Assembly: GCF_053078305.1 (NCBI RefSeq)
Contig: NZ_CP166879.1
Direction: 5' to 3' (one strand)
Length of the DNA stretch: 64,000 nt
Shown: positions 1,804 to 35,174 of the stretch, in pieces
How the letters are laid out: every line of letters begins with the position of its first letter
Position numbering within the stretch: position 1 is the first letter of the stretch
Position numbers and translations under genes: made by a program
Notes under the pieces: model-generated
Databases searched by the model: none
The model's input: only the letters and a program-made list of their open reading frames with translations
What the model was told of the DNA's origin: nothing

Positions 1804-1827
1804 GTATGCCTTTTTGTATGCCTTTTT
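1804..1827. repeat. Left direct repeat GTATGCCTTTTTGTATGCCTTTTT (putative att)
   Basis: Exact 24-bp copy of 10389-10412. Confidence 0.75.
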
Positions 1828-1985
1828 TGAAAAAGATACCCTTGTTGTTTGATCGTCGATAACGGGTATCAATGTGCACATGCAAATCGATGGCGTTTAT
1901 GTGTGCGCTGTCGAACGTTTGAAAATGGTTTTAGGGCGGTTTTAATGCTGGTTGATGTGGCGCTCTGTGGCGCTCGTTTTGGTGT

Positions 1986-2066
1986 GCTGGTGGCGGGGGT
2001 CGAACCCGCATACATGATCAGCCTGTACAGGCTGGCACCGACTCTACCCGTTGAGCGTACACCAGC
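1986..2066 (-). other. tRNA-like remnant (7-bp acceptor stem GCTGGTG/CACCAGC, canonical T-arm GCGGG-TTCGACC-CCCGC, aberrant anticodon arm, no CCA)
   Basis: Hand-folded from sequence; anticodon region replaced by perfect palindrome CAGCCTGTACAGGCTG. Confidence 0.45.
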
Positions 2067-2090
2067 AAAAAAGCGATGAGGTTGTTGGCT

Positions 2091-2178
2091 GCTGGTGGTG
2101 GGGGTCGAACCCACATAAACATCCCGCTTTCTGGAAGCTATACAAGCGGACGCCGCTTTACCGATTAAGAGTACACCA
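2091..2178 (-). other. Second tRNA-like remnant (T-arm GTGGG-TTCGACC-CCCAC plus CACCAGC 3' acceptor strand; 5' acceptor strand incomplete)
   Basis: Read from sequence; paralogous to 1986-2066 element. Confidence 0.35.
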
Positions 2179-2261
2179 TACAGCCAGGTAAAATAGTAAT
2201 CATGCGTTATGTGCGGGTAAAGTCTGTTTCGTCTGGTAGCACCAGATGAACGGGTATCATT

Positions 2262-2330
2262 ATTTCACCTGATTTCACGTGATTTCGCTTAATTTCACAA
2301 AAATCACCTTCTTTCACCTTCTTTCACAAA
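2262..2330. repeat. Array of six TTTCAC(C) direct repeats (iteron-like, crr-like)
   Basis: TTTCAC at 2264, 2274, 2294, 2313, 2323 plus degenerate copies; resembles P4 type I iteron TGTTCACC. Confidence 0.5.
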
Positions 2331-2461
2331 AAACAAATCATCATTAAAGCGCCTGATTCGCTCTCTGATGCGTTTTGGTGTTTTTGTGGCGTCCGTGATG
2401 CCCTGAAAGGGGATTTTTGCGATAGCGGCGCAAATATAACGGTTGCTGCTGGTATCTGTGG

Positions 2462-2869
2462 TTAGTCTTGCGTGATTTTATTGGCGTGCTTCTTTCTCAG
2501 TCGTCGTATGATGTCGTAAATATGGGTTTCGGATATTGCGTACTCTTTGCGTAATGCCTGCAATTTTTCGCCGTTATCCCACCTGTAGTAAATCTCGTAT
2601 TCGCGCAATGCTGCGAAAAGTGATCTGCCTGTTGGAAGGTAAAGACTTCGCCCACCAGCATAGAAGGCGATTGCAGCGACAACCCGCTTTGCGATTCTGA
2701 AAGCGTCTGCCTCCTCCATGCCATTACGGGTAAGTTCCGCTACTGAATGCGACACGATATCAGCAAGCGAATCACACCATGCATCACCTGGTTTATCTCC
2801 GTTGTCTATGGCGTCGATGAATTTAAGCCGCTCGATGTCTTTTGGTACGTGATGGGTTTGCTCGTTCAT
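2462..2869 (-). CDS. Mor-family-like transcriptional activator
   Basis: 135-aa ORF; C-terminal ...LYLPTGRSL...ISETHIYDIIRR pattern resembles Mor/C-type HTH domain. Confidence 0.55.
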   Translation of the reverse strand: MNEQTHHVPKDIERLKFIDAIDNGDKPGDAWCDSLADIVSHSVAELTRNGMEEADAFRIAKRVVAAIAFYAGGRSLYLPTGRSLFAALREYEIYYRWDNGEKLQALRKEYAISETHIYDIIRRLRKKHANKITQD

Positions 2870-2982
2870 CCGGTAGCCTCTTGCGTTGGTGTATCTGGTC
2901 CTACCAGTTTAATTTAACGTCGCAATAAAACGATATACACGCACACAATCAGAAAAGCCGTCTGACTGTTCCGGTCCCGTGC

Positions 2983-3255
2983 TTACTTCTGGTAGCTACG
3001 CCAGATTTTTTTACATCTCCCTCCTATCCCCATTTCTGCGTAAGTGCGGTTTACTGCTTTCCTCAGGTCTGCGTAGTTCTCCTCTGGCGGCTCCGGTGGC
3101 CTCTGTGCCTTCCCGTAACATTCTGCCCTGCGCATTGCCACCCGTTCGCGTTCCCTGTCAGTCTCCACCAGCATCATCACTTCAGCCCATCGCGCCGCCG
3201 CTCTCCGGTAAAAGCCCTTCGCCTCCAGCTCTTCCGCTATGCTGTCATGTACCAT
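2983..3255 (-). CDS. PerC-family transcriptional regulator-like protein
   Basis: 90-aa ORF with AEELEAKGFYRRAAARWAEVM motif typical of PerC/Pch proteins of prophage-like elements. Confidence 0.6.
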   Translation of the reverse strand: MVHDSIAEELEAKGFYRRAAARWAEVMMLVETDRERERVAMRRAECYGKAQRPPEPPEENYADLRKAVNRTYAEMGIGGRCKKIWRSYQK

Positions 3256-3265
3256 CGTTCACCCC

Positions 3266-3676
3266 TCAGAACGGAATATTGTCACCGTAAGGGTCATCGC
3301 CTCCCACTGGTGGCTGATTACCCTGTGTGCCTGTGGTCCTGCGTCTGTTGCCACCTGGTCGCGCCGTTTTCGCACTGATTACGCTGTCTGCAATGACCTG
3401 ATAACCCTGCCGCGTTTCCCCGTTCTGTCCGGTCCACTGACTGACCTGCATCACACCGGATACGCTGATTACGTTGCCTTTCTCATGTCCTGCCAGTTGG
3501 TCGGCCTGTTTGCCAAATGCCAGGACAGACAGCCATAACGTTGCCTGCCCGTCCTGCGCCTGACTGCATGGCAGCGATACCGCCATACGTGCCAGCGTCA
3601 TCGGTGTGCCCTTACTGGTCTGTTTTGTCTGCGGGTCGTCAATCAGTCGCCCGTAAGCTGCTATCTGCGCTGTCAT
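3266..3676 (-). CDS. Single-stranded DNA-binding protein-like (OB-fold, acidic ...DDPYGDNIPF tail)
   Basis: 136-aa ORF; glycine-rich linker and C-terminal acidic tip ending IPF as in SSB. Confidence 0.55.
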   Translation of the reverse strand: MTAQIAAYGRLIDDPQTKQTSKGTPMTLARMAVSLPCSQAQDGQATLWLSVLAFGKQADQLAGHEKGNVISVSGVMQVSQWTGQNGETRQGYQVIADSVISAKTARPGGNRRRTTGTQGNQPPVGGDDPYGDNIPF

Positions 3677-3777
3677 GATTCCACCTCTCCGGTTTTAACG
3701 TTGATGGTTGTTACCTGTTCCGCTTCTGCAATCTCCCGCTCTGTCAGCGTGGTAAAGTTTGCCGCTGCTGTGCTCAT
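3673..3777 (-). CDS. Small ORF (34 aa, MSTAAANFTTLTEREIAEAEQVTTINVKTGEVES) translationally coupled to ssb-like gene (ATGA overlap)
   Basis: Hand-translated; not in ORF track because below length cutoff. Confidence 0.3.
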   Translation of the reverse strand: MSTAAANFTTLTEREIAEAEQVTTINVKTGEVES

Positions 3778-3915
3778 GAATGCACTTATCAGCCAGGGGG
3801 CTTTCGCGTGTCTTTCTGCCGTGTTGTGGCCCTTCGTTCATGAGCAAAACACTTAAATAAAACTAAAGTGATTTTCTGTGTTTTCGTGCTGCTCTGCTCT
3901 GTGTTTTTTTGCCGT

Positions 3916-4130
3916 TTACTCACCACTACTCACTTTTTTTACTCACTTTTTGGAATCGCTCACTTCGTCTCACCTGAGATTTTTGGTGTTTTTATGTGTG
4001 TGTTTTATAAGTGGTTTTTTACTACTCACTTTTTTGCCTATATACAGGTGAGAAAGTGAGTAATTTTGTTAATTTTTTGTAAAATTACTCACTTTACTCA
4101 CTTTTGCTCCTCACTTTTTTACAGCGGTAC
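3916..4130. repeat. Iteron array: at least 8 copies of ACTCACTTT (one inverted), AT-rich; candidate replication origin
   Basis: Repeats read directly (e.g. TACTCACCACTACTCACTTTTTTTACTCACTTTTT; AAAGTGAGTA inverted copy); immediately 3' of replication helicase gene. Confidence 0.6.
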
Positions 4131-5516
4131 TACGTCATCGCCGTCAATGCGTATAGTCTCGTCTTTCTCCAGTTTTGCTAACCATCGCCGCATGTTTTTC
4201 ACGTCATACCCAAGCCGTTTCATGTCGTCGCGCAACAACGAAATAGTGCACTTGTCGCCGTGCTGTGTGCGTGACCGGATGCAGCCCCATAGCGCGGTAT
4301 GGTTTTCCGTCTTGTTGCCAGCCTCCTCGATGCGCTCCACTTCAACGGGATGACGCGGCTTATCCACCACAACCAGAGACGTGATTAACTCCCCGTCAGC
4401 GTCGGTAAAAAGCTCAACTACCCGCAAATCGTAGGCAGCTTCTTTGAGTTCCTCTGCGTCCTTCATTTTGGTACATGAGATAACCAGCGCTTCGCTTCCT
4501 GCGTCCTCCCTGCGTATCCGGTATTCAGCATCCAGTGATGCACGAAATGCACTGGAACCACGCGCCCCCTTTGTTTCATCCTTGCCGGAATGGTGAACCA
4601 CCAGCACCGTTGCCCCTGTGCGCCGTTTCAGTTCGTCACACCCACGGATAAACGCCCCCATATCACGGGAATCATTTTCATCATTGCCACCAAAGCAACG
4701 CGCCAGCGTATCCAGAATAATCATGCGTACAGGTTTACCCGTTTCCCGTTCCACCTGGCGGGCAGCGATAACCATTTCATCAACATCAAGCGGGGCAGCC
4801 GGAAAGATGGGGCGGTTTACCAGATACAGATTTTTCACCTGCTCACCGTGCACAACCTCCCAGGCTTTTACACGACGCGGAACGCCGATACCGCCTTCAC
4901 CAACCACATAGAGAACAGCGCCATGCGCCACCCTGCGGCCTCCCCACTGGCGGCCCGTGGAAACGTGACACGCCCACGAACCCGCAAGGAACGATTTATA
5001 GGAACCGCTCGCCCCGTATATGCTGCACAGCGATACCGCCGGAATAATCCCCTTAACCACGTAATCCAGTTGCGTGTCATATCCGGCAGAACCAACGCTC
5101 ATCGGTAGCTTTGTTTTGCGCTGGTGGCCTTTTTCTTCCTGCTTTTCCCCGCGCTCCCGTTCCAGATATTCGCGCCAGTTCTCCCGCTTCTGGCTGTGCA
5201 TCCCATCGGGGTAGTAATTCGCATCCTGTACGCCTGCCGCTGCCAGTTTTTGCGCGATGGCATTAATATTTGATGGTCTGATATGGCTTGCTTTGTACAG
5301 CCGGACGCAATAGCGCCCCTCGTCAATGATTTTCGTGTCTGCCAGTTCTGCCAGTTGCTGCTCCCCAAGCCATACAGGTGGCACATTATCGCCAGCAAGT
5401 CGGCCCTCCTGCTCCTGCCACTGCTTCGCGTGTGCCCAGGCATCACTACCCACAAAAATAATGACCTCGGTCATTTTGTCGTAAGGCTGTTTTTTTAAGT
5501 TCGGTGCGCTTTTCAT
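4119..5516 (-). CDS. Replication initiator/helicase (RecA-fold, AAA_25/RepA-like; P4 alpha-like role)
   Basis: 465-aa ORF; Walker A GASGSYKS, Walker B MIILDTLARCF...; C-terminal putative DNA-binding region; adjacent iterons. Confidence 0.8.
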   Translation of the reverse strand: MKSAPNLKKQPYDKMTEVIIFVGSDAWAHAKQWQEQEGRLAGDNVPPVWLGEQQLAELADTKIIDEGRYCVRLYKASHIRPSNINAIAQKLAAAGVQDANYYPDGMHSQKRENWREYLERERGEKQEEKGHQRKTKLPMSVGSAGYDTQLDYVVKGIIPAVSLCSIYGASGSYKSFLAGSWACHVSTGRQWGGRRVAHGAVLYVVGEGGIGVPRRVKAWEVVHGEQVKNLYLVNRPIFPAAPLDVDEMVIAARQVERETGKPVRMIILDTLARCFGGNDENDSRDMGAFIRGCDELKRRTGATVLVVHHSGKDETKGARGSSAFRASLDAEYRIRREDAGSEALVISCTKMKDAEELKEAAYDLRVVELFTDADGELITSLVVVDKPRHPVEVERIEEAGNKTENHTALWGCIRSRTQHGDKCTISLLRDDMKRLGYDVKNMRRWLAKLEKDETIRIDGDDVVPL

Positions 5517-5812
5517 TTCTTACCCCTGAATGCGTTAATCATCTTTTTCATCTTCTGTATTTTTGCCAGTGCCTTTACGTTGCTGGTGGGCACGTTACGC
5601 GGTACCGCCTGCACCAGAGAAAAATCACGGGAAAACTGATAAACAGGCATCACGCAGTCATATTCGTAGCCTTTACGGCGGTAGGTGACGCACCGCCCCG
5701 CCACGCCCTTAATCATTACCGTGCCGCCGTACTGGTCGCGGTAAATATCACCGCGCTTAAATTCAGGGCGAGGCTTGCCGCTGGCAGTTAAGCCAGTTTT
5801 TTTCATGTTCAT
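5513..5812 (-). CDS. Hypothetical small basic protein
   Basis: 99-aa ORF, stop overlaps helicase start (ATGA); no family recognised with confidence. Confidence 0.45.
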   Translation of the reverse strand: MNMKKTGLTASGKPRPEFKRGDIYRDQYGGTVMIKGVAGRCVTYRRKGYEYDCVMPVYQFSRDFSLVQAVPRNVPTSNVKALAKIQKMKKMINAFRGKK

Positions 5813-5885
5813 TTTTTTATCCTTTGTTCTGGTCAGTTACGCCGTTGCTGCATAAATGCGGTTAGCGGTGCCTGTCGTTGCCTTA

Positions 5886-6200
5886 TCACGAATGGCGATA
5901 ATCAGCACTGATATCTCCGTTACGACAACGCCAGTTGTACACCTCCACAACCTCACTGAATCCGGCCACAAGTTCAGCCGTAACAGCGATGGAATCGCCC
6001 AGGCTGCGCAGTTCGTCCATGTCAGGATCAATGCTGTCACTCATGCCAGAAAGTAAGCGCCCTGTGATAGCCAGCCCTTCAAGCAGTTTGCGGGCGTAGA
6101 AATCAGCATCATCAAACATCGCTCTCGCTTCCCGTGCGTCAGCTGCTTTTATGGTTGTAACCAGTTGTTCAAGTATTCTGGTGTTACACACATCACGCAT
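5886..6200 (-). CDS. Hypothetical protein
   Basis: 104-aa ORF in co-oriented gene train; no recognisable motifs. Confidence 0.45.
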   Translation of the reverse strand: MRDVCNTRILEQLVTTIKAADAREARAMFDDADFYARKLLEGLAITGRLLSGMSDSIDPDMDELRSLGDSIAVTAELVAGFSEVVEVYNWRCRNGDISADYRHS

Positions 6201-6363
6201 GACTCACCCCCTCACGAATAAGGGTGACAAAAATCAGATGGGTGTGCGGAAGTTGTGCGCGTGCTTCGTGCTCAGTGGCAGCGGTAACGGTGAATATTGC
6301 AATGCTGCCTGTCAGGCACTGCATAAAGCGCCAGACAAAGTAAGGGCGTGCGGATACAGCCAT
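6193..6363 (-). CDS. Icd-like small protein, copy C (56 aa; MAVSARPYFVWRFMQC...)
   Basis: Internal Met of ORF 6193..6687 preceded by strong SD (AGGAG, ~8-nt spacer); conserved C-terminal block shared by three tandem copies. Confidence 0.5.
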   Translation of the reverse strand: MAVSARPYFVWRFMQCLTGSIAIFTVTAATEHEARAQLPHTHLIFVTLIREGVSHA

Positions 6364-6649
6364 GTGAAAGGCTCCTATGTTTGAGGTAAGGAGTCTCGCT
6401 ACTACGCTGCTAAACATGGTGGCGAGACGTAACAGGGTTAGCAGACTGGCAACATAGAAACCAGCGAGCGCAAAGGCTCCCCCGTTACGCCCCGCCATAA
6501 TGCGGGTATGGGTAGGTTTACGGACACAAAAAAACCGCATATCGGAATGTAAGCGGCTGTCCGCTATGTTATTCAGGCTGCTAAACCCGGTCGCCATGTG
6601 GGTGACTCCGGCATCATACAGCCCGAAAGAAGAGGCGATCAACATGTTT

Positions 6650-6820
6650 TTATCCATGTGATGCCTCCTGACGGATACGGGCGACAAAAATCAGATGTGC
6701 GTGCGGCAGCCGGGCGCGTGCTTCGTGCTCAGTGGCAGCGGTAACGGTGAATACATCGATGTTACTGTGGTGGCACTGCATAAAGCGCCAGACAAAGTAA
6801 GGGCGTGCGAATACAGCCAT
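6650..6820 (-). CDS. Icd-like small protein, copy B (56 aa; MAVFARPYFVWRFMQC...)
   Basis: As copy C; SD AGGAG upstream of internal ATG at 6820. Confidence 0.5.
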   Translation of the reverse strand: MAVFARPYFVWRFMQCHHSNIDVFTVTAATEHEARARLPHAHLIFVARIRQEASHG

Positions 6821-7106
6821 GTGAAAGGCTCCTGTAGTGAAATTAAGGAGTCTCGCTACTACGCTGTCAAACATGGTGGCGAGACGTAACAGGGTTGACA
6901 GACTGGCACTACAGGAACCAGCGAGCGCAAAGGCTCCCCCGTTACGCCCCGCCATAATGCGGGTATGGGTAGGCTTACGGACACAAAAAAACCGCATATC
7001 GGAATGTAAGCGGCTGTCCGCTGTAGTATTCAGGCTGTCAAACCCGGTCGCCATGTGGACGACTCCGGCATCATACAGCCCGAAAGAAGAGGCGATCAAC
7101 ATGTTT

Positions 7107-7295
7107 TTAAGCATGACTCACCCCCTGACGAATACGGGCGGCGAATACAGCGACACAACCGGACGGGCAACGGTTACGCGCTTCGCGTTCCGTCCAGGCG
7201 GTTACGTGGATGATTTGACGTTCTGACGTGCCAAAGGTGATAAAGCGCCAGATAAAGGCGGTTTGAGAATGTACGAGGGCAGGGGTAGTAGCCAT
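7107..7295 (-). CDS. Icd-like small protein, diverged copy A (62 aa; MATTPALVHSQTAFIWRF...)
   Basis: SD AGGAGG upstream of ATG at 7295; C-terminus ...TEREARNRCPSG...ARIRQGVSHA homologous to copies B/C. Confidence 0.45.
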   Translation of the reverse strand: MATTPALVHSQTAFIWRFITFGTSERQIIHVTAWTEREARNRCPSGCVAVFAARIRQGVSHA

Positions 7296-7825
7296 GATGG
7301 CAGCCTCCTTTATCGTTGGGATATACCCACCGCTGGAGGTTCCAATCTCGCTGGCGGTGGACTGCACGGAGTTGGAACTACTGGCGATAAAGGAAACCAG
7401 CCTGACCGAAGTCAGCCCCATACAGCCCACCATTGATAAGGTGTGCGTGTGCGCCGATACAAAAAAAGACGCGTTCGGCGTCTGTATCGCCTTTATCTCC
7501 AGCGGGGTTCCAATCCCGACACCCGTTTTATGAGGTGCGCGGGAATCATAGCCATTTTTGATACTGGCGATCAACTGATTTTCTCTGGCGGGTATTTGGC
7601 GCGGATGCCTGTTACCTGTGGCAATATACACACGACTGTATACAATACACATCGGTTAACTCCTTATATTCCGTTGATGGCCCGTAGTGTTATTGCATTG
7701 CGGGTATTTTTTACCTGCCGTTAATTGAATGCGGCAAGGCATCACGACGGTTAACCCGTTTTGCATAACGTGAGGCGTTTTATTTTCTGCGCTGGTGGCT
7801 TTTATATTTCACATATGGGAATTTA

Positions 7826-8029
7826 TTATTCCTGCTGATAACGCTCCTCTACTTTCTTCTCAAGCCATGATTTCACCTCATCCTCAAACCAGCCAACGCG
7901 GCGTAATCCACGCTTAAAACCAGGAATAAATTCACCAGCCTTAACCATTGTGTCAATGCTCGTTGTACTAAGGCGAAGAAGATTTGCGACTTCTCGTTTT
8001 GTAAGGATTTTCTTTTCTGTAATGTTCAT
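7826..8029 (-). CDS. alpA: AlpA-family phage transcriptional regulator (HTH)
   Basis: 67-aa ORF, LTKREVANLLRLSTTSIDTMVKAGEFIP HTH typical of AlpA/prophage CP4-57 regulator family. Confidence 0.8.
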   Translation of the reverse strand: MNITEKKILTKREVANLLRLSTTSIDTMVKAGEFIPGFKRGLRRVGWFEDEVKSWLEKKVEERYQQE

Positions 8030-8121
8030 ACTTTGCGTTCCTTTTGTTTCAGGCGCTAACTTGCCTAAACTTGTTCAAGGATATGCAAACACGGTAAAAG
8101 CTGGCATTGCGGAATATTACG

Positions 8122-8145
8122 AAAAAAGCCCGTAATATTACGGGC
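8122..8145 (-). terminator. Rho-independent terminator after int-cargo unit
   Basis: Hairpin GCCCGTAATATTACGGGC followed on minus strand by U6. Confidence 0.65.
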
Positions 8146-8166
8146 GGTCATATGTTCAGAAGTCTG

Positions 8167-9063
8167 TCAGTCGTCAACGTCTGCAAGCCACTTACCTATG
8201 CATGTTGGTGTGGCACCGATATCAACGCCTGCTTTGGTTAGTGCGCGGCTTAACTTGCTGTGACCGTTTTCAAGCGCCCTTCGTGGGTTTGACGCCTCTT
8301 CTTCTCCGGCTATAGCGGTGATTAGTCTTTTGATAACTCTGGCCTGAAGATTGGTTGTTTTCTTTGATGGGGGTGGTTTATTGATGTTTAATTCATCCAT
8401 GTTTTCAATAGAAGCGGTACGCCCTCCGTTTATGGCTAAATCTATCTCACTTCTGGAAATAAAAATATCGTTACGTGATATATCCCATCCCTGTAATAAA
8501 ATCGCAGCTTTAAAATCATCCTCGTCATCGTTATCGATTATCTGAATGTATTTAGTATTTGTTGTATCGTGAAATGATAATCTTTCAATGTCTGCGCTGT
8601 TAGCCTTTACATTAAGCAATCCATCAGCTTTAACATATATTTCTTTTGCGGGTGTTATTATTTGTGCGTTTTTTATCTCTGGCTCATCTTCAGCAAAAAT
8701 ATTCATGCTGAAATAATCACCATATGATGAGTAATGATAGTTTATGTTGAGTCCTGCATGTGCATAATAAAAAACATCTATTGGAGTGAGTAGCTTATTT
8801 ATAGATGTGGCATCAATGATTACATTGCAATATTCATTTGTGTAATGCTGGTATAATGTTTTATTAGCACTGATAAGCTCAGGCTTTACCCCTTCATAAT
8901 ACTTTAATGTCAGTTTTTCATTTATATTAATGCGATACAAAAAACGCATCCTCCTCGTAGCGATGAAATGAAGCAAATCATCAACGTCACACTCAAGCCT
9001 TCTGGCTGCCTTGTCTAACGGGTAATAATCCCTTTCAGGAAGGTTTATTTTTTTGTTTGCCAT
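8167..9063 (-). CDS. Hypothetical protein, low-GC cargo (possible N-terminal excisionase-like HTH); function unknown
   Basis: 298-aa ORF 4 bp downstream of integrase stop; markedly AT-rich (about one third GC by eye) versus flanking genes; N/I/D-rich; followed by terminator. Confidence 0.6.
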   Translation of the reverse strand: MANKKINLPERDYYPLDKAARRLECDVDDLLHFIATRRMRFLYRININEKLTLKYYEGVKPELISANKTLYQHYTNEYCNVIIDATSINKLLTPIDVFYYAHAGLNINYHYSSYGDYFSMNIFAEDEPEIKNAQIITPAKEIYVKADGLLNVKANSADIERLSFHDTTNTKYIQIIDNDDEDDFKAAILLQGWDISRNDIFISRSEIDLAINGGRTASIENMDELNINKPPPSKKTTNLQARVIKRLITAIAGEEEASNPRRALENGHSKLSRALTKAGVDIGATPTCIGKWLADVDD

Positions 9064-9067
9064 GCCC

Positions 9068-10348
9068 TTAACCGTTAACCATTTTTAACCCACGATAGCC
9101 ACCCGTGGCGCTTACGCTCCCGCTGGCAGCTGCCTCTACAAAATCCCCCCACCACGCCATTAACGGGCGTCGCTGCTCGAGATAGGTTGAGCGGTTGTAC
9201 GCACGGCGAACCTCGTTTTTATCTATGTGTGACAATGCCGCCTCGATTACGTCAGAGTCAAAACCTTGCTCGTTAAGTGCGGTACTTGCTATTGAGCGCA
9301 AGCCATGAGCAACCAGCCGCCCACTAAAACCCATGCGTTTTATTGCTGCGTTTGCTGTTTGTACGCACATATGGCGCTGCGGGTCGCTGTTGTGTGGAAA
9401 TATAAACTCACGATGCCCGCTTATTGGCTTCATGACGTCCAGAATGGCTAACGCCTGCTTCGAGAGTGGTATTACGTGTTCCCTGCGTTGTTTAAGTCTG
9501 TGCTCTGGTATGCGCCATTCCTTCACCTCAAAATCAATTTCACACCAGCGCGCGCCAGCTGCTTCACCTGGTCGGCAAATTGTCAGTAGCTGCCACTCAA
9601 TGACCAGCCGCGTTTGTCGTTCCACCCGTGCCGTTGCCAGCTTCTGCATAAATTCGGGGAGTTCTTCAGGGCGTATTGCTGGCATGTTCTTAACGCTTGG
9701 CGCGTTAAATGCCTTGCTTATCTCTGATGCCGGATTCGCGGCAATCATTCCGGTATTAACGGCGTAATACATGACCTCATTGATTCGCTGTGCTGTCCTT
9801 CTGACGGTATCTAATTTCCCCTGGGCGGCTAATGGTTTTAATGCTTCGATGAAATTGCTTGCTATCAGGTCTGCTATTGGCCTGTTACCGACTGACGGGA
9901 ATACATTACGCTCCAGCGAACGCCATATATCGCGTAGTGTATCTTCTGCGAGTCCTTGCCCTTTTTTAAGTTCAAACCAGAGCGTAGCTACATGCCTGAA
10001 GGTGTTCTCTCTCTTCATCACTTCACTAAGGCGCTGTTTCTCTCTGTGCTCTTTTGGGTCAATGCCACCAGAAAGAAGCGCTCTGTATTCGTCTTTTATC
10101 TTTCGCGCGCCCGCAATGCTGATTTCTGGATATGCGCCAATGCTTAACATGGCCCGTTTTTTTGTGTGTGGCTTGTAGTAGCGGTAACGCCACAAGCAAG
10201 AGGCGCTTTTGTGCTTAATCACCAGTTCCAGCCCTTCGCCGTCAGTGATGAAAAGGTCCTTTTTTTCGTTGCTGGCTTTTCGCTGGAGGCTTTTTATCGT
10301 TGCGGGTGATAAAGACTTAACTTTTTTGGTCACCGGTTCAACTCCCAT
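9068..10348 (-). CDS. int: Tyrosine site-specific integrase, P4-type
   Basis: 426-aa ORF; catalytic tail ...AHGLRSIASTAL...RAYNRSTY; adjacent to tRNA and att repeat. Confidence 0.9.
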   Translation of the reverse strand: MGVEPVTKKVKSLSPATIKSLQRKASNEKKDLFITDGEGLELVIKHKSASCLWRYRYYKPHTKKRAMLSIGAYPEISIAGARKIKDEYRALLSGGIDPKEHREKQRLSEVMKRENTFRHVATLWFELKKGQGLAEDTLRDIWRSLERNVFPSVGNRPIADLIASNFIEALKPLAAQGKLDTVRRTAQRINEVMYYAVNTGMIAANPASEISKAFNAPSVKNMPAIRPEELPEFMQKLATARVERQTRLVIEWQLLTICRPGEAAGARWCEIDFEVKEWRIPEHRLKQRREHVIPLSKQALAILDVMKPISGHREFIFPHNSDPQRHMCVQTANAAIKRMGFSGRLVAHGLRSIASTALNEQGFDSDVIEAALSHIDKNEVRRAYNRSTYLEQRRPLMAWWGDFVEAAASGSVSATGGYRGLKMVNG

Positions 10349-10388
10349 AAGCTGTTAAAGGCATATGCAAATCTGTGTTTTTTCCGGC

Positions 10389-10412
10389 GTATGCCTTTTT
10401 GTATGCCTTTTT
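10389..10412. repeat. Right direct repeat GTATGCCTTTTTGTATGCCTTTTT (putative att)
   Basis: Exact 24-bp copy of 1804-1827, 41 bp upstream of int start. Confidence 0.75.
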
Positions 10413-10454
10413 AATCTTGCTTATACGCTATCAAACTGGCCCAAACTGAACAAT

Positions 10455-10484
10455 AAAAAACCCGCGTTCCTTGTCTGGCGCGGG
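10455..10484 (-). terminator. Rho-independent terminator of ileX
   Basis: Hairpin CCCGCG...CGCGGG followed by U6 on minus strand, ~50 bp 3' of tRNA. Confidence 0.7.
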
Positions 10485-10531
10485 TTTGCTTTGTTTAACT
10501 TGCCGTAACTTGTCTTTACTTGGTGTCGATT

Positions 10532-10607
10532 TGGTGGCCCCTGCTGGACTTGAACCAGCGACCAAGCGATTATGAGTCGCCTGCTCTAACCACTGAGCTA
10601 AGGGGCC
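10532..10607 (-). tRNA. ileX: tRNA-Ile2 (anticodon CAU, lysidine-modified), 76 nt with encoded CCA
   Basis: Reverse complement reads GGCCCCTTAGCTCAGTGGTTAGAGCAGGCGACTCATAATCGCTTGGTCGCTGGTTCAAGTCCAGCAGGGGCCACCA; cloverleaf and CAT anticodon. Confidence 0.9.
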
Positions 10608-10731
10608 ATGGTAGCGGATTATAAAGTAACTCCGTGTCGCAATCCAGCCATTACCGCGCGCCTGCTGTTTTTATAAACAATGTATTTTCAATCCGTTATA
10701 CTTTTCCTGATGATGTTAGAAAGGAGTAAAT

Positions 10732-11238
10732 ATGGTTGAGGATATTTTGGCTCCAGGGTTACGGGTCGTGTTTTGCGGTATCAACCCTGGGCTTTCATCC
10801 GCCGGGACTGGTTTTCCCTTTGCTCATCCGGCAAATCGCTTCTGGAAGGTGATATATCAGGCCGGGTTTACCGACCGTCAGTTGAAGCCGCAGGAGGCAC
10901 AGCATCTGCTGGATTATCGTTGTGGCGTCACCAAACTGGTAGACCGTCCAACGGTGCAAGCCAATGAAATTTCAAAGCAAGAGCTACACGCAGGTGGGCG
11001 TAAGCTGATTGAAAAAATTGAAGATTATCAGCCGCAAGCGTTGGCGATTCTGGGTAAACAAGCATATGAACAGGGATTCAGCCAGCGCGGTGCACAGTGG
11101 GGGAAACAAACGCTCAGCATTGGTTCGACGCAGATTTGGGTGCTGCCAAATCCCAGTGGTTTAAGTCGCGTTTCACTGGAGAAACTGGTTGAAGCGTATC
11201 GCGAGCTGGACCAGGCGCTGGTGGTGCGTGGGCGATAA
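10732..11238 (+). CDS. mug: G/U mismatch-specific DNA glycosylase
   Basis: 168-aa ORF with GINPGL motif; matches E. coli Mug. Confidence 0.9.
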
Positions 11239-22935: not shown

Positions 22936-23065
22936 GCGTAGGCCGAATAAGGCGTTCACGCCGCATCCGGCAATCAACGCCTGATGCGACGCTTGCGCGT
23001 CTTATCAGGCCTACAACTGTCGTTGACGTGTAGCCGGATAAGGCGTTTACGCCGCATCCGGCAAA
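22936..23065. repeat. BIME: cluster of three REP palindromes between uppP and cca
   Basis: TAGGCCGAATAAGGCGTTCACGCCGCATCCGGCA / GCCTGATGCGACGCTTGCGCGTCTTATCAGGC / GTAGCCGGATAAGGCGTTTACGCCGCATCCGGCA. Confidence 0.8.
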
Positions 23066-29452: not shown

Positions 29453-30886
29453 ATGAAAGTAACGCTGCCAGAGTTTGAACGAGCAGGAGTGATGGTGGTT
29501 GGTGATGTGATGCTGGATCGTTACTGGTACGGTCCCACCAGCCGTATCTCGCCGGAAGCGCCGGTGCCCGTGGTTAAAGTGAATACCATCGAAGAACGCC
29601 CGGGCGGCGCGGCTAACGTGGCGATGAATATCGCTTCTCTCGGTGCTAATGCACGTCTGGTCGGGTTGACGGGCATTGACGATGCAGCGCGCGCGCTGAG
29701 TAAATCTCTGGCCGACGTCAACGTCAAATGCGACTTCGTTTCTGTACCGACGCATCCGACCATCACCAAATTACGGGTACTTTCCCGCAACCAACAGCTG
29801 ATCCGTCTGGATTTTGAAGAAGGTTTCGAAGGTGTTGATCCGCAGCCGCTGCACGAGCGGATTAATCAGGCGCTGAGTTCGATTGGCGCGCTGGTGCTTT
29901 CTGACTACGCCAAAGGTGCGCTGGCAAGCGTACAGCAGATGATCCAACTGGCGCGTAAAGCGGGCGTTCCGGTGCTGATTGATCCAAAAGGTACCGATTT
30001 TGAGCGCTACCGCGGCGCTACGCTGTTAACGCCGAATCTCTCGGAATTTGAAGCTGTTGTCGGTAAATGTAAGACCGAAGAAGAGATTGTTGAGCGCGGC
30101 ATGAAACTGATTGCCGATTACGAACTCTCGGCTCTGTTAGTGACCCGTTCCGAACAGGGTATGTCGCTGCTGCAACCGGGTAAAGCGCCGCTGCATATGC
30201 CAACCCAGGCGCAGGAAGTGTATGACGTTACCGGTGCGGGCGACACGGTGATTGGCGTCCTGGCGGCAACGCTGGCAGCGGGTAATTCGCTGGAAGAAGC
30301 CTGCTTCTTTGCCAATGCGGCGGCTGGCGTGGTGGTCGGCAAACTGGGAACCTCCACGGTTTCGCCGATCGAGCTGGAAAACGCTGTACGTGGACGCGCA
30401 GATACCGGCTTTGGCGTGATGACCGAAGAGGAACTGAAGCTGGCTGTAGCGGCAGCGCGTAAACGTGGTGAAAAAGTGGTAATGACCAACGGTGTCTTCG
30501 ATATCCTACATGCCGGGCACGTCTCTTATCTGGCAAATGCCCGCAAGCTGGGTGACCGCTTGATTGTTGCCGTCAACAGCGATGCCTCCACCAAACGGCT
30601 GAAAGGGGATTCCCGCCCGGTAAACCCACTCGAACAGCGTATGATTGTGCTGGGCGCACTGGAAGCGGTCGACTGGGTAGTGTCGTTTGAAGAAGACACG
30701 CCGCAGCGTCTGATCGCCGGGATCCTGCCAGACCTGCTGGTGAAAGGCGGTGACTACAAACCGGAAGAGATCGCCGGGAGTAAAGAAGTCTGGGCCAACG
30801 GCGGCGAAGTGTTGGTGCTCAACTTTGAAGACGGTTGCTCGACCACTAACATTATCAAGAAGATCCAACAGGATAAAAAAGGCTAA
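29453..30886 (+). CDS. hldE: Bifunctional D-beta-D-heptose 7-phosphate kinase / heptose 1-phosphate adenylyltransferase
   Basis: 477-aa ORF; ribokinase-like N-domain and cytidylyltransferase C-domain (VFDILHAGH). Confidence 0.95.
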
Positions 30887-30965
30887 CCGGAAAGCGGTTC
30901 ACAGATCTCGCTTCGTACATGGCAGGCCTATTGACGCTGTTGTTTTTTCAACCTAGAGTAAAGGA

Positions 30966-31108
30966 ACAAGGGTAAGGGAGGATTTCTCCCCCCTCTGATG
31001 AGTTGTTAGTAAGTCGGGAAACTTAACAGTAACAACACAACCAGTATGATGACGAGCTTCATCATAACCCTTTCCTTCTATAAGGCCCCTTCCTCGGGAG
31101 GGGCTTTC
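30966..31108 (+). ncRNA. sibD: Sib-type antisense sRNA (antitoxin of ibsD); coordinates approximate
   Basis: Sigma70-like promoter TTGACG-17-TAGAGT at 30931-30959; transcript covers ibsD antisense; terminator hairpin GGCCCCTTCCTCGGGAGGGGC near 31083-31103. Confidence 0.6.
31006..31065 (-). CDS. ibsD: Type I toxin Ibs, 19 aa (MMKLVIILVVLLLLSFPTY)
   Basis: Hand-translated from reverse complement; hydrophobic 19-mer identical in form to E. coli Ibs toxins; missed by ORF track. Confidence 0.8.
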   Translation of the reverse strand: MMKLVIILVVLLLLSFPTY

Positions 31109-31341
31109 CCGTTTCAGCCCCTTGCTGACTCCCCGATTGTTGATGAGCGCCGGACCCCGCGCAACGCTTTCCCTGAAGCAGTTTTGCCTTCCCCGAGCGG
31201 TCACGCAAAACGCTGCAACGTCCTGAGCATTTGCACCTTTTAGCGGAACGCAGATATAAAAAATCCCCGGCTTTTTGGGCCAGGGATATGCGTTAATGAA
31301 ACCTTCTTGACGCTGATTTTTTTTCAACCTAAAGTAAAGGA

Positions 31342-31483
31342 ACAAGGGTGAGGGAGGATTTCTCCCCCTCTGATTGGCTGTTAATAAGCTGCGAAACTTA
31401 CGAGTAACAACACAATCAGTATGATGACGAGCTTCATCATAACCCTTTCCTTATACAAGGCCCCTTCTTCGGGAGGGGCTTTC
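31342..31483 (+). ncRNA. sibE: Sib-type antisense sRNA, second tandem copy; coordinates approximate
   Basis: Promoter TTGACG-17-TAAAGT at 31307-31335; tandem ~375-bp duplicate of sibD unit. Confidence 0.6.
31381..31440 (-). CDS. ibsE: Type I toxin Ibs, 19 aa (MMKLVIILIVLLLVSFAAY)
   Basis: Hand-translated; second copy in tandem repeat. Confidence 0.8.
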   Translation of the reverse strand: MMKLVIILIVLLLVSFAAY

Positions 31484-31678
31484 CCGTTTCAGCCCCTTGC
31501 TGACTTCCCGATTGTTGATGAGTGCCGGATCCCGCGCAATGCTTTCCCTGTGGCAGTTTTGCCTTCCCCGAGCGGTCACGCAAAACGCTGCAACGTCCTG
31601 AGCATTTGCACCTTTTAGCGGAACGCAGATATAAAAAATCCCCGGCTTTTTGGGCCAGGGATGTTCATAGCTGAAAAT

Positions 31679-33340
31679 TTATTCTACGTTTTCGGCGACG
31701 GGAGTTGTTGAGGTTAAGGGTGAAGTCAATGCCGCCAGCGAGCCGCCTGAAACGCCAATTTCATTGAGCAAGGAGTCAATCAGCGGTGCCTGTGTGCGGT
31801 AAGAAAGGGCGGCAGACAATGCCTGCTCTGCAAGGTTTCCTCCACTAACGCTACCTGCGCTCGCATCACCCGCAGTACCACCACGATTCAGTCCATCGAC
31901 CTGAATGATCTTAATACCATCGATCGACTTCATCGGCTCAACGGATTTCTCAATTACCGCAGGCAGCGCCTGCAATAATGCCAGTTTGAATTTAAGGCTG
32001 GTTTGTTCATCAGAAAGTACGTTGATAGCATCGTTCAGCGCACGTTGTGCTTCTGCTTCCGCCAGACCTTTTTTACGCGTAGCTTCAGCTAACTCAACGA
32101 TCGCCGCCGCCTGCATCTCTGCGGCTTCTTTTTCTGCTTTTGCCCGCACGGTCAGTTCAACCGCTTTGGTTTCTGCATCCTGCGCGGCAGCGATTAGGGC
32201 AACTTGTTTAGCACGATCGGCTTCTGCGGTCTGGCGAGTGGTTTCAACGTTTTGTTGGGCGCTTACTGCTTCTGCGAGTGCAAGGTTAGCACGCGCTTCT
32301 GCCTGGGACTGTTGTTCCGATTTGGCGGCAATAGCGATCGATTTCGTCTGGTTAGCGATTTCGGTGACCTGCTGCTGTTCGATCTCTTTAATGCGAACTT
32401 CACGTTCAGCTTCAACTTTTCTTGAGCGGACGGCCTGTTCGCGGTCGATTTCTGTTTCCTGAATCTGTCGTTCAGCCAGAATTCGCGTCTGCTCTGCTTC
32501 ACGACGACGTTCAGCTTCAAAAGCCGCAATTTTCGCATTCTGCTCAGCGGTACGGGTTTTAACCTGCTGCTCCTGCTCAAGCGTCATAAACGCTTCTTGT
32601 TGTTCAATCTCCAACTTGCGCGAAAGTGCATCACGGTTTTTCTCACGCACCGCAACTTCTACATCCTGTTCAACTTCGTTACGCTCGCGGCGACGGCGCT
32701 CCGTCTCCTGAGTCAGTTTGGTTAAACCTTCGGCGTCAAAGGCATTGTTCGGATTGAAATGTTCTTTCGAGGTCTGGTTAAAGTTGGTAAGTGAAACGCT
32801 TTCCAGTTCCAGGCCGTTTTTCGACAGATCTTCAGCTACGGTATTTTGTACTCCCTGCACGAAGTTCTCGCGGGTATCCTGTAACTCATGCATGGTCATT
32901 TGCGCAGCTGTTGCACGGAGGGCATCGACAAATTTATCTTCAACCAACATACGTAAGTCTTCAGGCGACAGGGTGCGTTGCCCCAGCGTCTGGGCAGCGG
33001 TGGCAATCCCTTCTACTGAAGGTTTTACCCGCACAAAGAAAGCGACTACTACATCGACGCGCATACGATCTTTCGTAATCAGGCTATCAATGGTTGAGCG
33101 GCTGACTTCCAGCTTCAGAGTATTCATATTGATGGGGATTATTTCATGAAAGATCGGCATCACGATTGCGCCACCGCTCATTACCACTTTTTGCCCACCT
33201 AAACCAGTACGAACAAAAGCTTGCTCTGCCGAAGCGCGACGATAGAGCCTGGCGAAAATAATTCCAATAATAAACAGAATGCATACGGCAATAATCGCGG
33301 TAAACATCCAGGAGGGCACAGAATTAACAATATCATCCAT
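31679..33340 (-). CDS. yqiK: Flotillin-family (SPFH/band 7) inner membrane protein
   Basis: 553-aa ORF, N-terminal TM, SPFH domain and long coiled-coil rich in E/A/Q. Confidence 0.9.
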   Translation of the reverse strand: MDDIVNSVPSWMFTAIIAVCILFIIGIIFARLYRRASAEQAFVRTGLGGQKVVMSGGAIVMPIFHEIIPINMNTLKLEVSRSTIDSLITKDRMRVDVVVAFFVRVKPSVEGIATAAQTLGQRTLSPEDLRMLVEDKFVDALRATAAQMTMHELQDTRENFVQGVQNTVAEDLSKNGLELESVSLTNFNQTSKEHFNPNNAFDAEGLTKLTQETERRRRERNEVEQDVEVAVREKNRDALSRKLEIEQQEAFMTLEQEQQVKTRTAEQNAKIAAFEAERRREAEQTRILAERQIQETEIDREQAVRSRKVEAEREVRIKEIEQQQVTEIANQTKSIAIAAKSEQQSQAEARANLALAEAVSAQQNVETTRQTAEADRAKQVALIAAAQDAETKAVELTVRAKAEKEAAEMQAAAIVELAEATRKKGLAEAEAQRALNDAINVLSDEQTSLKFKLALLQALPAVIEKSVEPMKSIDGIKIIQVDGLNRGGTAGDASAGSVSGGNLAEQALSAALSYRTQAPLIDSLLNEIGVSGGSLAALTSPLTSTTPVAENVE

Positions 33341-34920: not shown

Positions 34921-35174
34921 GCTTATTCTCAGGGCGGGGCGAAATTCCCCACCGGCGGTAAATCAACTCAGTTGAAAGCCCGCGAGCGCTTTGGGTGCGA
35001 ACTCAAAGGACAGCAGATCCGGTGTAATTCCGGGGCCGACGGTTAGAGTCCGGATGGGAGAGAGTAACGATTCTGTCGGGCATGGACCCGCTCACGTTAT
35101 TTTGGCTATATGCCGCCACTCCTAAGACTGCCCTGATTCTGGTAACCATAATTTTAGTGAGGTTTTTTTTTACC
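34921..35174 (+). ncRNA. FMN riboswitch (RFN element) leader of ribB
   Basis: Conserved aptamer AGGGCGGGGCGAAATTCCCCACCGGCGGTAAATCAACTCAGTTGAAAGCCCGCGAGCGCTTTGGGTGCGAACTCAAAGGACAGCAGATCCGGTGTAATTCCGGGGCCGACGGTTAGAGTCCGGATGGGAGAGAGTAACG upstream of ribB. Confidence 0.85.

What the first reader, a model, noticed from the sequence alone, without database searches (positions are those of the whole stretch)
30930..31680. Tandem sib/ibs type I toxin-antitoxin pair missed by the ORF track
Seen: about 375 bp duplicated in tandem; each unit has a sigma70-like promoter (TTGACG-17-TAGAGT or TAAAGT) driving a plus-strand RNA and, on the minus strand, a 19-codon hydrophobic ORF (MMKLVIILVVLLLLSFPTY and MMKLVIILIVLLLVSFAAY). 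The ORF track instead reports two spurious 65-aa plus-strand ORFs (31046..31243, 31421..31618). Knowledge: this matches the SibD/IbsD and SibE/IbsE loci of E. coli located between hldE and yqiK.
Basis: partly seen in the sequence, partly recalled or inferred. Interest (0 to 1): 0.4.

Follow-up and report, generated by a model that had tools for sequence, protein, structure and literature searches.

The report
Known sibE/ibsE and sibD/ibsD toxin-antitoxin pair

Summary
The observation and the interpretation are both correct, and the feature is already known. Window 30931-31663 holds two tandem units of about 358 bp, 375-376 bp apart and 93-95% identical.

- **Sib RNAs:** each unit gives a full-length Rfam SIB_RNA match (141 and 143.5 bits; gathering score 56).
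- **Ibs peptides:** each unit has an antisense 19-codon ORF. The peptides are identical to K-12 IbsE (unit 1, next to hldE) and IbsD (unit 2, next to yqiK). Both match Pfam Ibs_toxin above its gathering score.
- **Annotation:** RefSeq annotates ibs genes at this locus; 5,416 of 5,426 complete E. coli genomes match at least 80% of the stretch.
- **Frame conservation:** the 19-codon frame is intact in 63 of 67 homologues from other Enterobacterales. It is the only frame of six that is always open, and its pN/pS is 0.41.
- **65-aa plus-strand ORFs:** these are by-products. They are frame-broken in K-12, range from 3 to 100 codons elsewhere, and match no protein family.
- **RNA structure:** 16 base pairs show compensatory changes.

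The only things beyond the textbook are small. The window has a private 35-bp tract in unit 2 that copies unit 1 (gene conversion or an assembly artefact). The TRD2 specificity segment is shuffled between the D and E units among strains. About a quarter of sampled genomes carry a single unit.

The parts
30931..31288 (.). Repeat unit 1 (hldE-proximal): the sibE/ibsE module
   Evidence: Direct-repeat families D1/D2; alignment A1; K-12 annotation transferred by alignment
30931..30959 (+). sibE sigma-70 promoter: -35 TTGACG at 30931-30936, 17-nt spacer, -10 TAGAGT at 30954-30959. Identical to K-12.
   Evidence: Promoter scan; identity to K-12; coordinates checked
30966..31109 (+). SibE antitoxin RNA, 144 nt, +1A. 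The terminator hairpin spans about 31082-31107 and is followed by CUUUCCCGUUU.
   Evidence: K-12 sibE ends transferred; Rfam RF00113 141 bits; own model 167 bits; fold -51.8 kcal/mol, z -3.6
31006..31065 (-). ibsE CDS, 19 codons plus stop, MMKLVIILVVLLLLSFPTY. The purine-rich SD (AAGGAAAGGG) lies at about 31068-31077.
   Evidence: Translation identical to K-12 IbsE; Pfam PF13956 46.3 bits against gathering score 27; RefSeq WP_010723221.1 in near-identical strains
31129..31164 (-). ibsE promoter and inferred transcription start: -35 TTGCGC at 31164-31159, 17-nt spacer, -10 AACAAT at 31141-31136, start at about G31129. The mRNA runs to about 30966, roughly 164 nt.
   Evidence: Inferred by homology to the ibsD start mapped by primer extension in Han et al. 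2010 (PMC2943612); coordinates. Family-wide homology ends at about 31128.
31263..31287 (-). Copy of the yqiK-type intrinsic terminator (ATCCCTGGCCCAAAAAGCCGGGGAT followed by a T-run), lying between the ibsD and ibsE modules
   Evidence: Terminator scan; sequence identical to the 31662-31638 copy. Function inferred.
31307..31663 (.). Repeat unit 2 (yqiK-proximal): the sibD/ibsD module
31307..31335 (+). sibD sigma-70 promoter: -35 TTGACG, 17-nt spacer, -10 TAAAGT. The 35 bp at 31307-31341 are identical to the K-12 sibD minimal promoter region.
   Evidence: Liu et al. [quoted passage not shown]
31342..31484 (+). SibD antitoxin RNA, 143 nt, +1A. The terminator hairpin spans about 31457-31482.
   Evidence: K-12 sibD ends transferred; Rfam 143.5 bits; own model 160.1 bits; fold -53.4 kcal/mol, z -4.6
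31381..31440 (-). ibsD CDS, 19 codons plus stop, MMKLVIILIVLLLVSFAAY
   Evidence: Identical to K-12 IbsD; Pfam PF13956 40.0 bits against gathering score 27; RefSeq WP_001387081.1
31504..31539 (-). ibsD promoter and transcription start: -35 TTGCGC at 31539-31534, -10 AACAAT at 31516-31511, start at G31504 (+/- 2 nt). The mRNA is about 163 nt, running to about 31342, with a 20-nt 5' overhang beyond the SibD 3' end.
   Evidence: Placed from the -21..+165 construct and primer sequences of Han et al. 2010; the paper's 163-nt ibsD mRNA; coordinates
31638..31662 (-). yqiK intrinsic terminator, the first element of unit 2 on the minus strand
   Evidence: Terminator scan; yqiK stop codon at 31679
31578..31612 (.). 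Private tract in unit 2. Seven clustered differences from the nearest strain (SCU-316) all equal the homologous base of the window's own unit 1.
   Evidence: No complete E. coli genome exceeds 96.8% identity over 31500-31720, although the flanks are 99.6% and 99.9% identical to SCU-316.
31046..31243 (+). Spurious 65-aa ORF, which begins at the complement of the ibsE V-I-I codons
   Evidence: Frame-broken in K-12 (59 aa with a different C-terminus); length 3-100 aa in homologues; no Pfam or NCBIfam match
31421..31618 (+). Spurious 65-aa ORF, the unit 2 copy
   Evidence: Only 27 aa in K-12
30885..30899 (-). Terminator-like hairpin followed by a T-run on the minus strand, with the hairpin overlapping the hldE stop codon. 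It is a candidate stop for ibsE-side read-through.
   Evidence: Terminator scan. Role inferred, not tested.

Best explanation
The region holds two tandem copies of the E. coli Sib/Ibs type I toxin-antitoxin module: sibE/ibsE next to hldE and sibD/ibsD next to yqiK.

In each unit a weak sigma-70 promoter on the minus strand (TTGCGC-17-AACAAT) makes an ibs mRNA of about 163 nt. This mRNA encodes a 19-residue hydrophobic peptide. When over-produced, the peptide inserts in the inner membrane, depolarises it and stops growth.

A stronger promoter on the plus strand (TTGACG-17-TA[G/A]AGT, start at A) makes a Sib RNA of about 143 nt. This RNA is perfectly complementary to the whole ibs ribosome-binding site and ORF.

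Sib pairs first through two exposed segments. TRD1 is a loop opposite codons 10-18. TRD2 is the single-stranded stretch opposite the SD region. Pairing then spreads, which blocks translation and triggers degradation of the ibs mRNA.

The two units differ at exactly these segments, so each Sib should act mainly on its own ibs.

What is shown here: the sequences, the RNA and peptide family membership, the synteny, the conservation of frame and structure, and identity to K-12. What is taken from the literature: toxicity, repression and the recognition domains. What is inferred: the ibsE transcription start and the roles of the terminators.
For: - Rfam RF00113 gives two full-length matches, 141 and 143.5 bits, against a gathering score of 56.
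- K-12 annotates sibD/ibsD and sibE/ibsE between yqiK and hldE. The window peptides are 100% identical to K-12 IbsE and IbsD. The Sib promoter and ibs ORF of each unit are identical to K-12, and the Sib RNAs nearly so: the differences are in the segment 3' of the P1 stem (TRD2 tail and terminator loop) plus one base in a C-run.
- RefSeq annotates Ibs family toxins under the match in the sampled hits, and 5,416 of 5,426 complete E. coli genomes hold at least 80% of the stretch.
- Pfam PF13956 Ibs_toxin matches end to end at 46.3 and 40.0 bits, against a gathering score of 27.
- A model built on the true RNA ends finds 67 homologues in Escherichia, Citrobacter, Salmonella, Kluyvera, Pseudocitrobacter, Phytobacter, Hafnia and Chimaeribacter.
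- The 19-codon ORF is intact in 63 of 67 homologues.
- For codons 8-19, the ibs frame is the only one open in 59 of 59 distinct sequences. Its pN/pS is 0.41, against 0.52-2.94 for the other frames. Entropy by codon position is 7.05 / 2.98 / 11.85.
- Structure: 91.1% of cells are paired. Sixteen pairs have changes on both sides, against 3-12 in the slid controls, and 0 of 500 shuffles reach the observed score.
- The ibsD transcription start, the recognition domains TRD1 and TRD2, and cognate-only repression come from Han et al. 2010 (PMC2943612).
- Toxicity and membrane depolarisation come from the review PMC8309996. Inhibition of the Fo sector of ATP synthase by Salmonella IbsA comes from a 2025 bioRxiv preprint.
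- Of the 15 differences between the window's two Sib RNAs, 5 fall in TRD1 and 2 in or at the edge of TRD2.
Against: - Nothing contradicts the identification.
- Expression, toxicity and repression were not measured for this strain. They rest on sequence identity to K-12 and on published experiments done mainly with ibsC/SibC and ibsD/SibD.
- The ibsE transcription start is inferred by homology only.
- The ibs promoters match the consensus poorly (8 of 12) and were not picked up by the scan.
- NCBIfam returned no Ibs model.
- The first seven codons and helix 5 of the homologues were fixed by my search pattern, so their conservation carries no weight.
- The excess of between-unit differences in TRD1 and TRD2 is modest (7 of 15 in about 30% of the length) and was not tested formally.
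Confidence: 0.97

Rival explanations
1. The two 65-aa plus-strand ORFs (31046-31243 and 31421-31618) are real genes, and the short minus-strand ORFs are incidental.
For: They are the longest open frames in each unit. A few Escherichia relatives also keep a 65-codon version (5 of 67 homologues).
Against: - In K-12 indels reduce them to 59 aa (with a different C-terminus) and 27 aa, although the Sib/Ibs core is unchanged.
- Their length ranges from 3 to 100 codons across homologues.
- They match nothing in Pfam or NCBIfam.
- Their start codons are simply the complement of the conserved V-I-I codons of ibs.
- In the region overlapping ibs, all three Sib-strand frames contain stops in most homologues (35-55 of 59).
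Confidence: 0.01
2. The repeats are decayed, non-functional copies of the intergenic repeat (the old 'QUAD' sequences): present in the sequence but no longer a working toxin-antitoxin pair in this strain.
For: - 4 of 67 homologues have a disrupted ibs ORF while the Sib RNA still scores, so decay does happen in the family.
- About a quarter of sampled E. coli genomes manage with one unit here.
- No expression data are available for this strain.
Against: - Both Sib promoters, both +1A starts, both terminators, both SD sequences and both ORFs are intact. The promoters and ORFs are identical to K-12.
- In K-12 these RNAs are expressed and SibD represses ibsD.
- Both peptides are identical to the K-12 proteins.
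Confidence: 0.02
3. This rival concerns the side observation only. The unit-1-like tract in unit 2 (31578-31612) may be an assembly or consensus artefact of a 375-bp tandem repeat rather than a real gene conversion.
For: - The tract is seen in none of 5,423 matching complete genomes (best identity 96.8%).
- Its seven differences are exactly the unit 1 bases, which is also what mis-assigned reads would produce.
- The provenance of the window and its read data are unknown.
Against: - Recombination between the units occurs in nature. The TRD2 tail alleles are found in different combinations with E-type and D-type bodies in complete, mostly long-read genomes.
- Unit-specific differences on both sides of the tract are retained.
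Confidence: 0.3

Closest known systems
E. coli K-12 sibE/ibsE (b4611/b4666) and sibD/ibsD (b4447/b4664), between yqiK and hldE
   Same: - Same locus, same order relative to hldE and yqiK, and the same tandem spacing.
- Identical Ibs peptides, and identical Sib promoters with +1A.
- The Sib promoter and ibs ORF of each unit are identical; the Sib RNAs differ only 3' of the P1 stem and by one base in a C-run.
   Different: - The TRD2 tail is exchanged. The window has E + CTATAAGG and D + ATACAAGG; K-12 has E + ATACAAGG and D + CTGTAAGG.
- There are several substitutions and indels in the distal part of each unit.
- In the window, the distal 35-bp tract of unit 2 copies unit 1.
sibC/ibsC of E. 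coli K-12 (the experimentally best-characterised member)
   Same: - Same architecture: an antisense RNA of about 140 nt covering the whole SD and ORF of a 19-codon toxin gene.
- Same predicted fold.
- TRD1 and TRD2 lie at the homologous variable segments.
   Different: - It is a single copy at a different locus, between fau and serA.
- Han et al. report 82% similarity to SibD, and the two do not cross-repress.
sibA/ibsA and sibB/ibsB tandem pair (between yegL and mdtA)
   Same: It is also a tandem duplication of the module within one intergenic region. The tandem arrangement is a documented trait of the family.
   Different: - +1G starts, hence no NAD cap.
- IbsB has 18 residues.
- Homology to the window covers only 30969-31118.
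Other chromosomal type I toxin-antitoxin families of E. coli (ldr/rdl, zorO/orzO, hok/sok, tisB/istR-1, shoB/ohsC)
   Same: Small hydrophobic membrane toxin repressed by an antisense RNA. Often tandemly duplicated and often missed by ORF callers.
   Different: - Unrelated sequences.
- In most of them the antitoxin overlaps only part of the mRNA or is encoded in trans. Sib spans the entire functional mRNA.

Membership tests
Sib RNA (Rfam RF00113) | Covariance-model score at or above the curated gathering score (56 bits), full length | tested here: met
   141.0 bits (30931-31080) and 143.5 bits (31307-31455), model positions 1-147 of 147
Sib RNA (Rfam RF00113) | Conserved multi-helix fold supported by compensatory changes | tested here: met
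   On 71 sequences, 91.1% of cells are paired. Sixteen pairs change on both sides, against 3-12 for the slid controls, and 0 of 500 shuffles reach the score. Caveats: the alignment was fitted to the model, and helix 5 was fixed by the search pattern.
Sib RNA (Rfam RF00113) | Own sigma-70 promoter and intrinsic terminator giving an RNA of about 140 nt | tested here: met
   Promoters; RNA ends transferred from the K-12 annotation give 144 and 143 nt; GC-rich terminal hairpin followed by a U-rich tail
Sib RNA (Rfam RF00113) | Abundant RNA detectable in cells | not testable with these tools
   Published for K-12 SibD and SibE. No expression data for this strain.
Ibs toxin (Pfam PF13956) | Profile score above the gathering score (27 bits) over the whole 19-residue model | tested here: met
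   46.3 and 40.0 bits, profile positions 1-19 of 19. The peptides were padded with their in-frame upstream residues because the tool needs at least 20 aa.
Ibs toxin (Pfam PF13956) | 18-19 codon hydrophobic ORF with an SD, conserved as a coding frame | tested here: met
   19 codons in 63 of 67 homologues; the only open frame, pN/pS 0.41, coding-type variability by codon position; SD AAGGAAAGGG ends 2 nt (GTT spacer, 5 nt from the GGAAAGGG core start) upstream of the ATG
Ibs toxin (Pfam PF13956) | Toxic on over-expression (membrane depolarisation) | not testable with these tools
   The peptides are identical to K-12 IbsE ('toxic peptide') and IbsD.
Type I toxin-antitoxin system | The antitoxin is an RNA that base-pairs with the toxin mRNA | tested here: met
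   Sib (30966-31109 and 31342-31484, + strand) is encoded exactly opposite the ibs SD and ORF (31006-31078 and 31381-31453, - strand), so complementarity is complete. The inferred mRNA overhangs the Sib 3' end by 20 nt.
Type I toxin-antitoxin system | The antitoxin represses toxin synthesis in vivo | not testable with these tools
   Shown for SibC/ibsC and SibD/ibsD by co-transformation assays
sibD-sibE locus of E. coli | Position between hldE and yqiK, with E next to hldE and D next to yqiK | tested here: met
   hldE 29453-30886 (+) and yqiK 31679-33340 (-); K-12 annotation; 5,416 of 5,426 genomes share the locus

The most novel reading that the evidence does not exclude
The tandem D and E modules exchange short tracts by gene conversion. 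The exchanged tracts include the TRD2 segment that helps each Sib RNA tell its own ibs mRNA from the neighbour's.

As a result, antitoxin specificity determinants are reshuffled among E. coli lineages, while the two units of any one genome stay different from each other. In 13 of 13 tandem genomes sampled, the two TRD2 tails differ.

If the within-genome difference is maintained by selection, this natural variation would be a ready-made test of how cis-antisense paralogues avoid cross-talk.
Probability: 0.2. Interest if true: 0.3.

Novelty: already known. Interest (0 to 1): 0.07.

Why it matters
It matters little beyond correct annotation. The two modules are textbook E. coli genes. Their only practical lesson is the known one: ORF callers with a length threshold miss 19-codon toxins and may report long spurious frames on the opposite strand.

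The small extras could interest people who study how duplicated antisense regulators keep their specificity. These extras are the shuffling of the TRD2 segment between units among strains, a private conversion tract in this window, and variation between one and two units. They are incremental.

Tried and rejected
- **Tandem-junction count:** a 56-nt query across the unit 1/unit 2 junction, meant to count tandem genomes, found nothing. The cause is almost certainly technical. A SNP relative to most strains plus low-complexity masking leaves no exact 28-mer. I estimated the share of tandem and single-unit genomes from the evenly spaced sample instead.
- **NCBIfam:** it has no model that hits the Ibs peptides, so I used Pfam.
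- **Founding paper:** Fozo et al. 2008 is not held in the library. Its results are cited only through Han et al. 2010 and the 2021 review.
- **Clustering of between-unit differences in TRD1 and TRD2:** 7 of 15 differences fall in about 30% of the RNA. This is a modest excess that I did not test formally, so I do not lean on it.
- **Third promoter-like site:** a site inside sibE (31023-31050, TTAACA-16-TATGAT) occurs only in unit 1, and its -10 element overlaps the conserved V-I-I codons. I treat it as a by-product.
- **Distal 160 bp as a hidden conserved element:** family-wide homology stops at the ibs transcription start (about 31128). The distal part is conserved only at hldE-yqiK-type loci and diverges faster than the Sib body.
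- **Chance matches:** pattern matches in Clostridia, methanogens and other unrelated taxa gave no hit with the covariance model.
Full report
**1. Observation**

- The repeat finder reports two direct-repeat families in register, 30931-30992 / 31307-31368 and 30989-31288 / 31364-31663. They are 93-94% identical and spaced 375-376 bp apart.
- A pairwise alignment of the two units gives 95% mean column identity.
- The promoter scan finds TTGACG-17-TAGAGT (30931-30959) and TTGACG-17-TAAAGT (31307-31335) on the plus strand. It found three promoter-like sites in this kilobase, against 0.6 +/- 0.7 in shuffles.
- The minus strand carries two 19-codon ORFs. 31065..31006 encodes MMKLVIILVVLLLLSFPTY and 31440..31381 encodes MMKLVIILIVLLLVSFAAY.
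- The two 65-aa plus-strand ORFs exist at 31046..31243 and 31421..31618.
- hldE ends at 30886 on the plus strand and yqiK ends at 31679 on the minus strand.

**2. Identity**

Rfam gives two full-length SIB_RNA (RF00113) matches, at 141.0 and 143.5 bits against a gathering score of 56.

The K-12 reference annotates sibD/ibsD and sibE/ibsE between yqiK and hldE, with the E pair next to hldE. The window's peptides are identical to K-12 IbsE (unit 1) and IbsD (unit 2). The Sib promoter and ibs ORF of each unit are identical to K-12. The Sib RNAs are nearly identical: they differ in the segment 3' of the P1 stem (section 5) and by one base in a C-run.

Of 5,426 complete E. coli genomes, 5,416 hold at least 80% of the stretch. 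RefSeq labels the small genes there as Ibs family toxins.

Pfam's Ibs_toxin model matches both peptides end to end, at 46.3 and 40.0 bits against a gathering score of 27. The peptides had to be padded with their in-frame upstream residues to reach the tool's 20-residue minimum.

The flanks of the window are 99.6% and 99.9% identical to ordinary E. coli strains such as SCU-316.

**3. Exact anatomy**

Transferring the K-12 RNA ends through the alignment gives SibE at 30966-31109 (144 nt) and SibD at 31342-31484 (143 nt). Both start with A. The Rfam model is offset relative to the real RNA: it begins at the -35 box and stops before the terminator hairpin.

Han et al. 2010 mapped the ibsD transcription start by primer extension and describe a -21..+165 construct together with its primers. 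Placed on the window, this puts the start at G31504 (+/- 2 nt). Upstream lie -10 AACAAT (31516-31511) and -35 TTGCGC (31539-31534), and the 5' UTR is 64 nt. The homologous elements of ibsE are at 31129, 31141-31136 and 31164-31159.

The inferred ibs mRNAs overhang the Sib 3' ends by 20 nt. The paper reports 18 nt for ibsC.

The minus strand also carries an intrinsic terminator just after yqiK (31662-31638) and an identical copy between the two modules (31287-31263). On that strand the order is therefore: yqiK, terminator, ibsD module, terminator, ibsE module, then a further terminator-like hairpin that overlaps the hldE stop codon.

Family-wide homology to paralogues and to other genera runs from about 30931 to about 31128. 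This covers the Sib promoter up to the ibs transcription start. The distal 160 bp are conserved only at hldE-yqiK-type loci.

**4.

I scanned one genome per species for a conserved Sib motif. I then built a covariance model on the true RNA ends of seven Sib RNAs and searched the fetched loci.

The search found 67 Sib RNAs in Escherichia, Citrobacter, Salmonella, Kluyvera, Pseudocitrobacter, Phytobacter, Hafnia, Chimaeribacter and others. None of the chance pattern matches from unrelated taxa scored.

| Test | Result |
|---|---|
| Antisense ORF length | exactly 19 codons in 63 of 67 homologues |
| Plus-strand ORF length | 3-100 codons; 65 codons in only 5 of 67 |
| Open frame, codons 8-19 | the ibs frame is the only one of six open in all 59 distinct sequences |
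| pN/pS, codons 8-19 | 0.41 in the ibs frame; 0.52-2.94 in the others |
| Entropy by codon position | 7.05 / 2.98 / 11.85, a coding pattern |
| 65-aa ORFs in K-12 | indels cut them to 59 aa (different C-terminus) and 27 aa |
| 65-aa ORFs against Pfam and NCBIfam | no match |
| Sib structure, paired cells | 91.1% |
| Pairs with compensatory changes | 16, against 3-12 in the slid controls |
| Shuffles reaching the covariation score | 0 of 500 |

The frame tests were restricted to codons 8-19 because my search pattern fixed codons 1-7. Helix 5 is invariant partly for the same reason and carries no weight.

**5. Mechanism**

The window sequence shows two convergently overlapping transcription units per module, with the Sib RNA covering the whole SD and ORF of ibs.

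The literature supplies the function:
- Ibs peptides are toxic on over-production. They affect the cell envelope and depolarise the membrane. A 2025 preprint reports that Salmonella IbsA inhibits the Fo sector of ATP synthase.
- Sib RNAs are constitutively expressed and repress only their cognate ibs. Recognition uses two independent domains: TRD1 (a loop, whose target lies in the ORF) and TRD2 (single-stranded, whose target lies in the translation initiation region). Repression leads to mRNA degradation.

The window's two Sib RNAs differ at 15 positions. Five are in TRD1 and two are in or at the edge of TRD2. This agrees with the two units being separate specificities, though the excess is modest.

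Predicted folds of the ibs mRNAs place the AUG in a hairpin and part of the SD in a long-range stem, with z-scores of -4.9 and -2.8. This is a prediction only.

The 35 bp upstream of SibD are identical to the K-12 minimal promoter. [quoted passage not shown]

**6. What is not textbook**

These points are minor.

(a) **Private tract in unit 2.** Against its nearest relative, SCU-316, the window has seven clustered differences at 31578-31612. All seven equal the homologous base of the window's own unit 1. No complete E. coli genome exceeds 96.8% identity over 31500-31720. This is either a short gene-conversion tract or a repeat-assembly artefact.

(b) **TRD2 tail alleles.** The tail occurs as three alleles that combine differently with the E-type and D-type bodies:

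| Combination | Genomes |
|---|---|
| E + ATACAAGG / D + CTGTAAGG | K-12, BL21, B-2207, 2e, ETEC1746 |
| E + CTATAAGG / D + CTGTAAGG | strain 131, EC-JS426, SCU-152, 2009C_3689 |
| E + CTATAAGG / D + ATACAAGG | the window, 14EC033, SCU-316 |

Strain 3059 carries a D-type body in the hldE-proximal unit. In all 13 tandem genomes the two tails differ from each other.

(c) **Single-unit genomes.** In an evenly spaced sample of the ranking, 6 of 25 genomes carry a single unit.

**7. Verdict**

The feature is already known and annotated, so interest is low.

Noticed in passing
window 31578-31612: Seven clustered differences from the nearest strain (SCU-316) all equal the homologous base of the window's own unit 1. 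No complete E. coli genome shares this tract (best identity 96.8% over 31500-31720). It is either gene conversion between the tandem units or an assembly artefact.
   Followed up: yes
window 31074-31085 and 31449-31460; loci L001, L002, L090-L099: The segment just 3' of the Sib P1 stem (the TRD2 tail) has three alleles: CTATAAGG, CTGTAAGG and ATACAAGG. Among 13 tandem E. coli genomes these combine differently with E-type and D-type bodies, and the two units of one genome never share an allele.
   Followed up: partly
loci L003, L100, L029 (hldE-yqiK locus of other E. coli): Copy-number polymorphism: 6 of 25 evenly sampled genomes have a single unit here. In the two single-unit loci fetched (L003, L100) and the GTDB representative (L029) it is E-type with K4F (MMKFVIILVVLLLLSFPTY).
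   Followed up: partly
window 30931-31080 and 31307-31455 versus 30966-31109 and 31342-31484: The Rfam SIB_RNA model is offset from the real RNA. It starts at the -35 box of the promoter and ends before the terminator hairpin, so Rfam hit coordinates lie about 35 nt upstream of the annotated K-12 RNA ends.
   Followed up: yes
locus L096 (E. coli strain 3059): The hldE-proximal unit carries the D-type body and IbsD peptide. The yqiK-proximal unit encodes a further variant, MMKLVIILIVLLLVSFQAY. The identity of the two slots is therefore not fixed across E. coli.
   Followed up: no
window about 1500-11000: A mobile-element-like island next to tRNA(CAT) at 10532-10607 (-). The matching genomes annotate an integrase, a RepA-family helicase, two Icd-like division inhibitors and an SSB. 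Rfam finds three C4 antisense RNAs (6415-6502, 6872-6959, 7350-7437) and isrK (7462-7538). Only 7 of 5,426 genomes hold at least 80% of it.
   Followed up: partly
window 1985-2066 (-): A weak Rfam tRNA match (35 bits, E = 0.0013) that ARAGORN does not call. It may be a tRNA-like sequence or an attachment-site remnant at the far edge of the island.
   Followed up: no
window 34921-35069 (+): FMN riboswitch (120.9 bits), in the stretch whose best matches annotate ribB. This is the known arrangement.
   Followed up: no
window 22941-23011 (+): An naRNA4 / REP-type element (79.3 bits).
   Followed up: no
window 31023-31050 (+): The best consensus promoter match in the region (TTAACA-16-TATGAT, 10 of 12) lies inside sibE, in unit 1 only. 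Its -10 element overlaps the conserved V-I-I codons of ibsE. It is probably a by-product.
   Followed up: no
four of the 67 Sib homologues in the loci fetched: In four homologues the Sib RNA still scores well, but the antisense ORF has lost its stop or frame (27-33+ codons). These are possibly decaying toxin genes that retain their antitoxin.
   Followed up: no
loci L094 and L098: yqiK, next to the sib locus, is annotated as a pseudogene in two sampled strains: an internal stop in 2009C_3689 and a frameshift in strain 2e.
   Followed up: no
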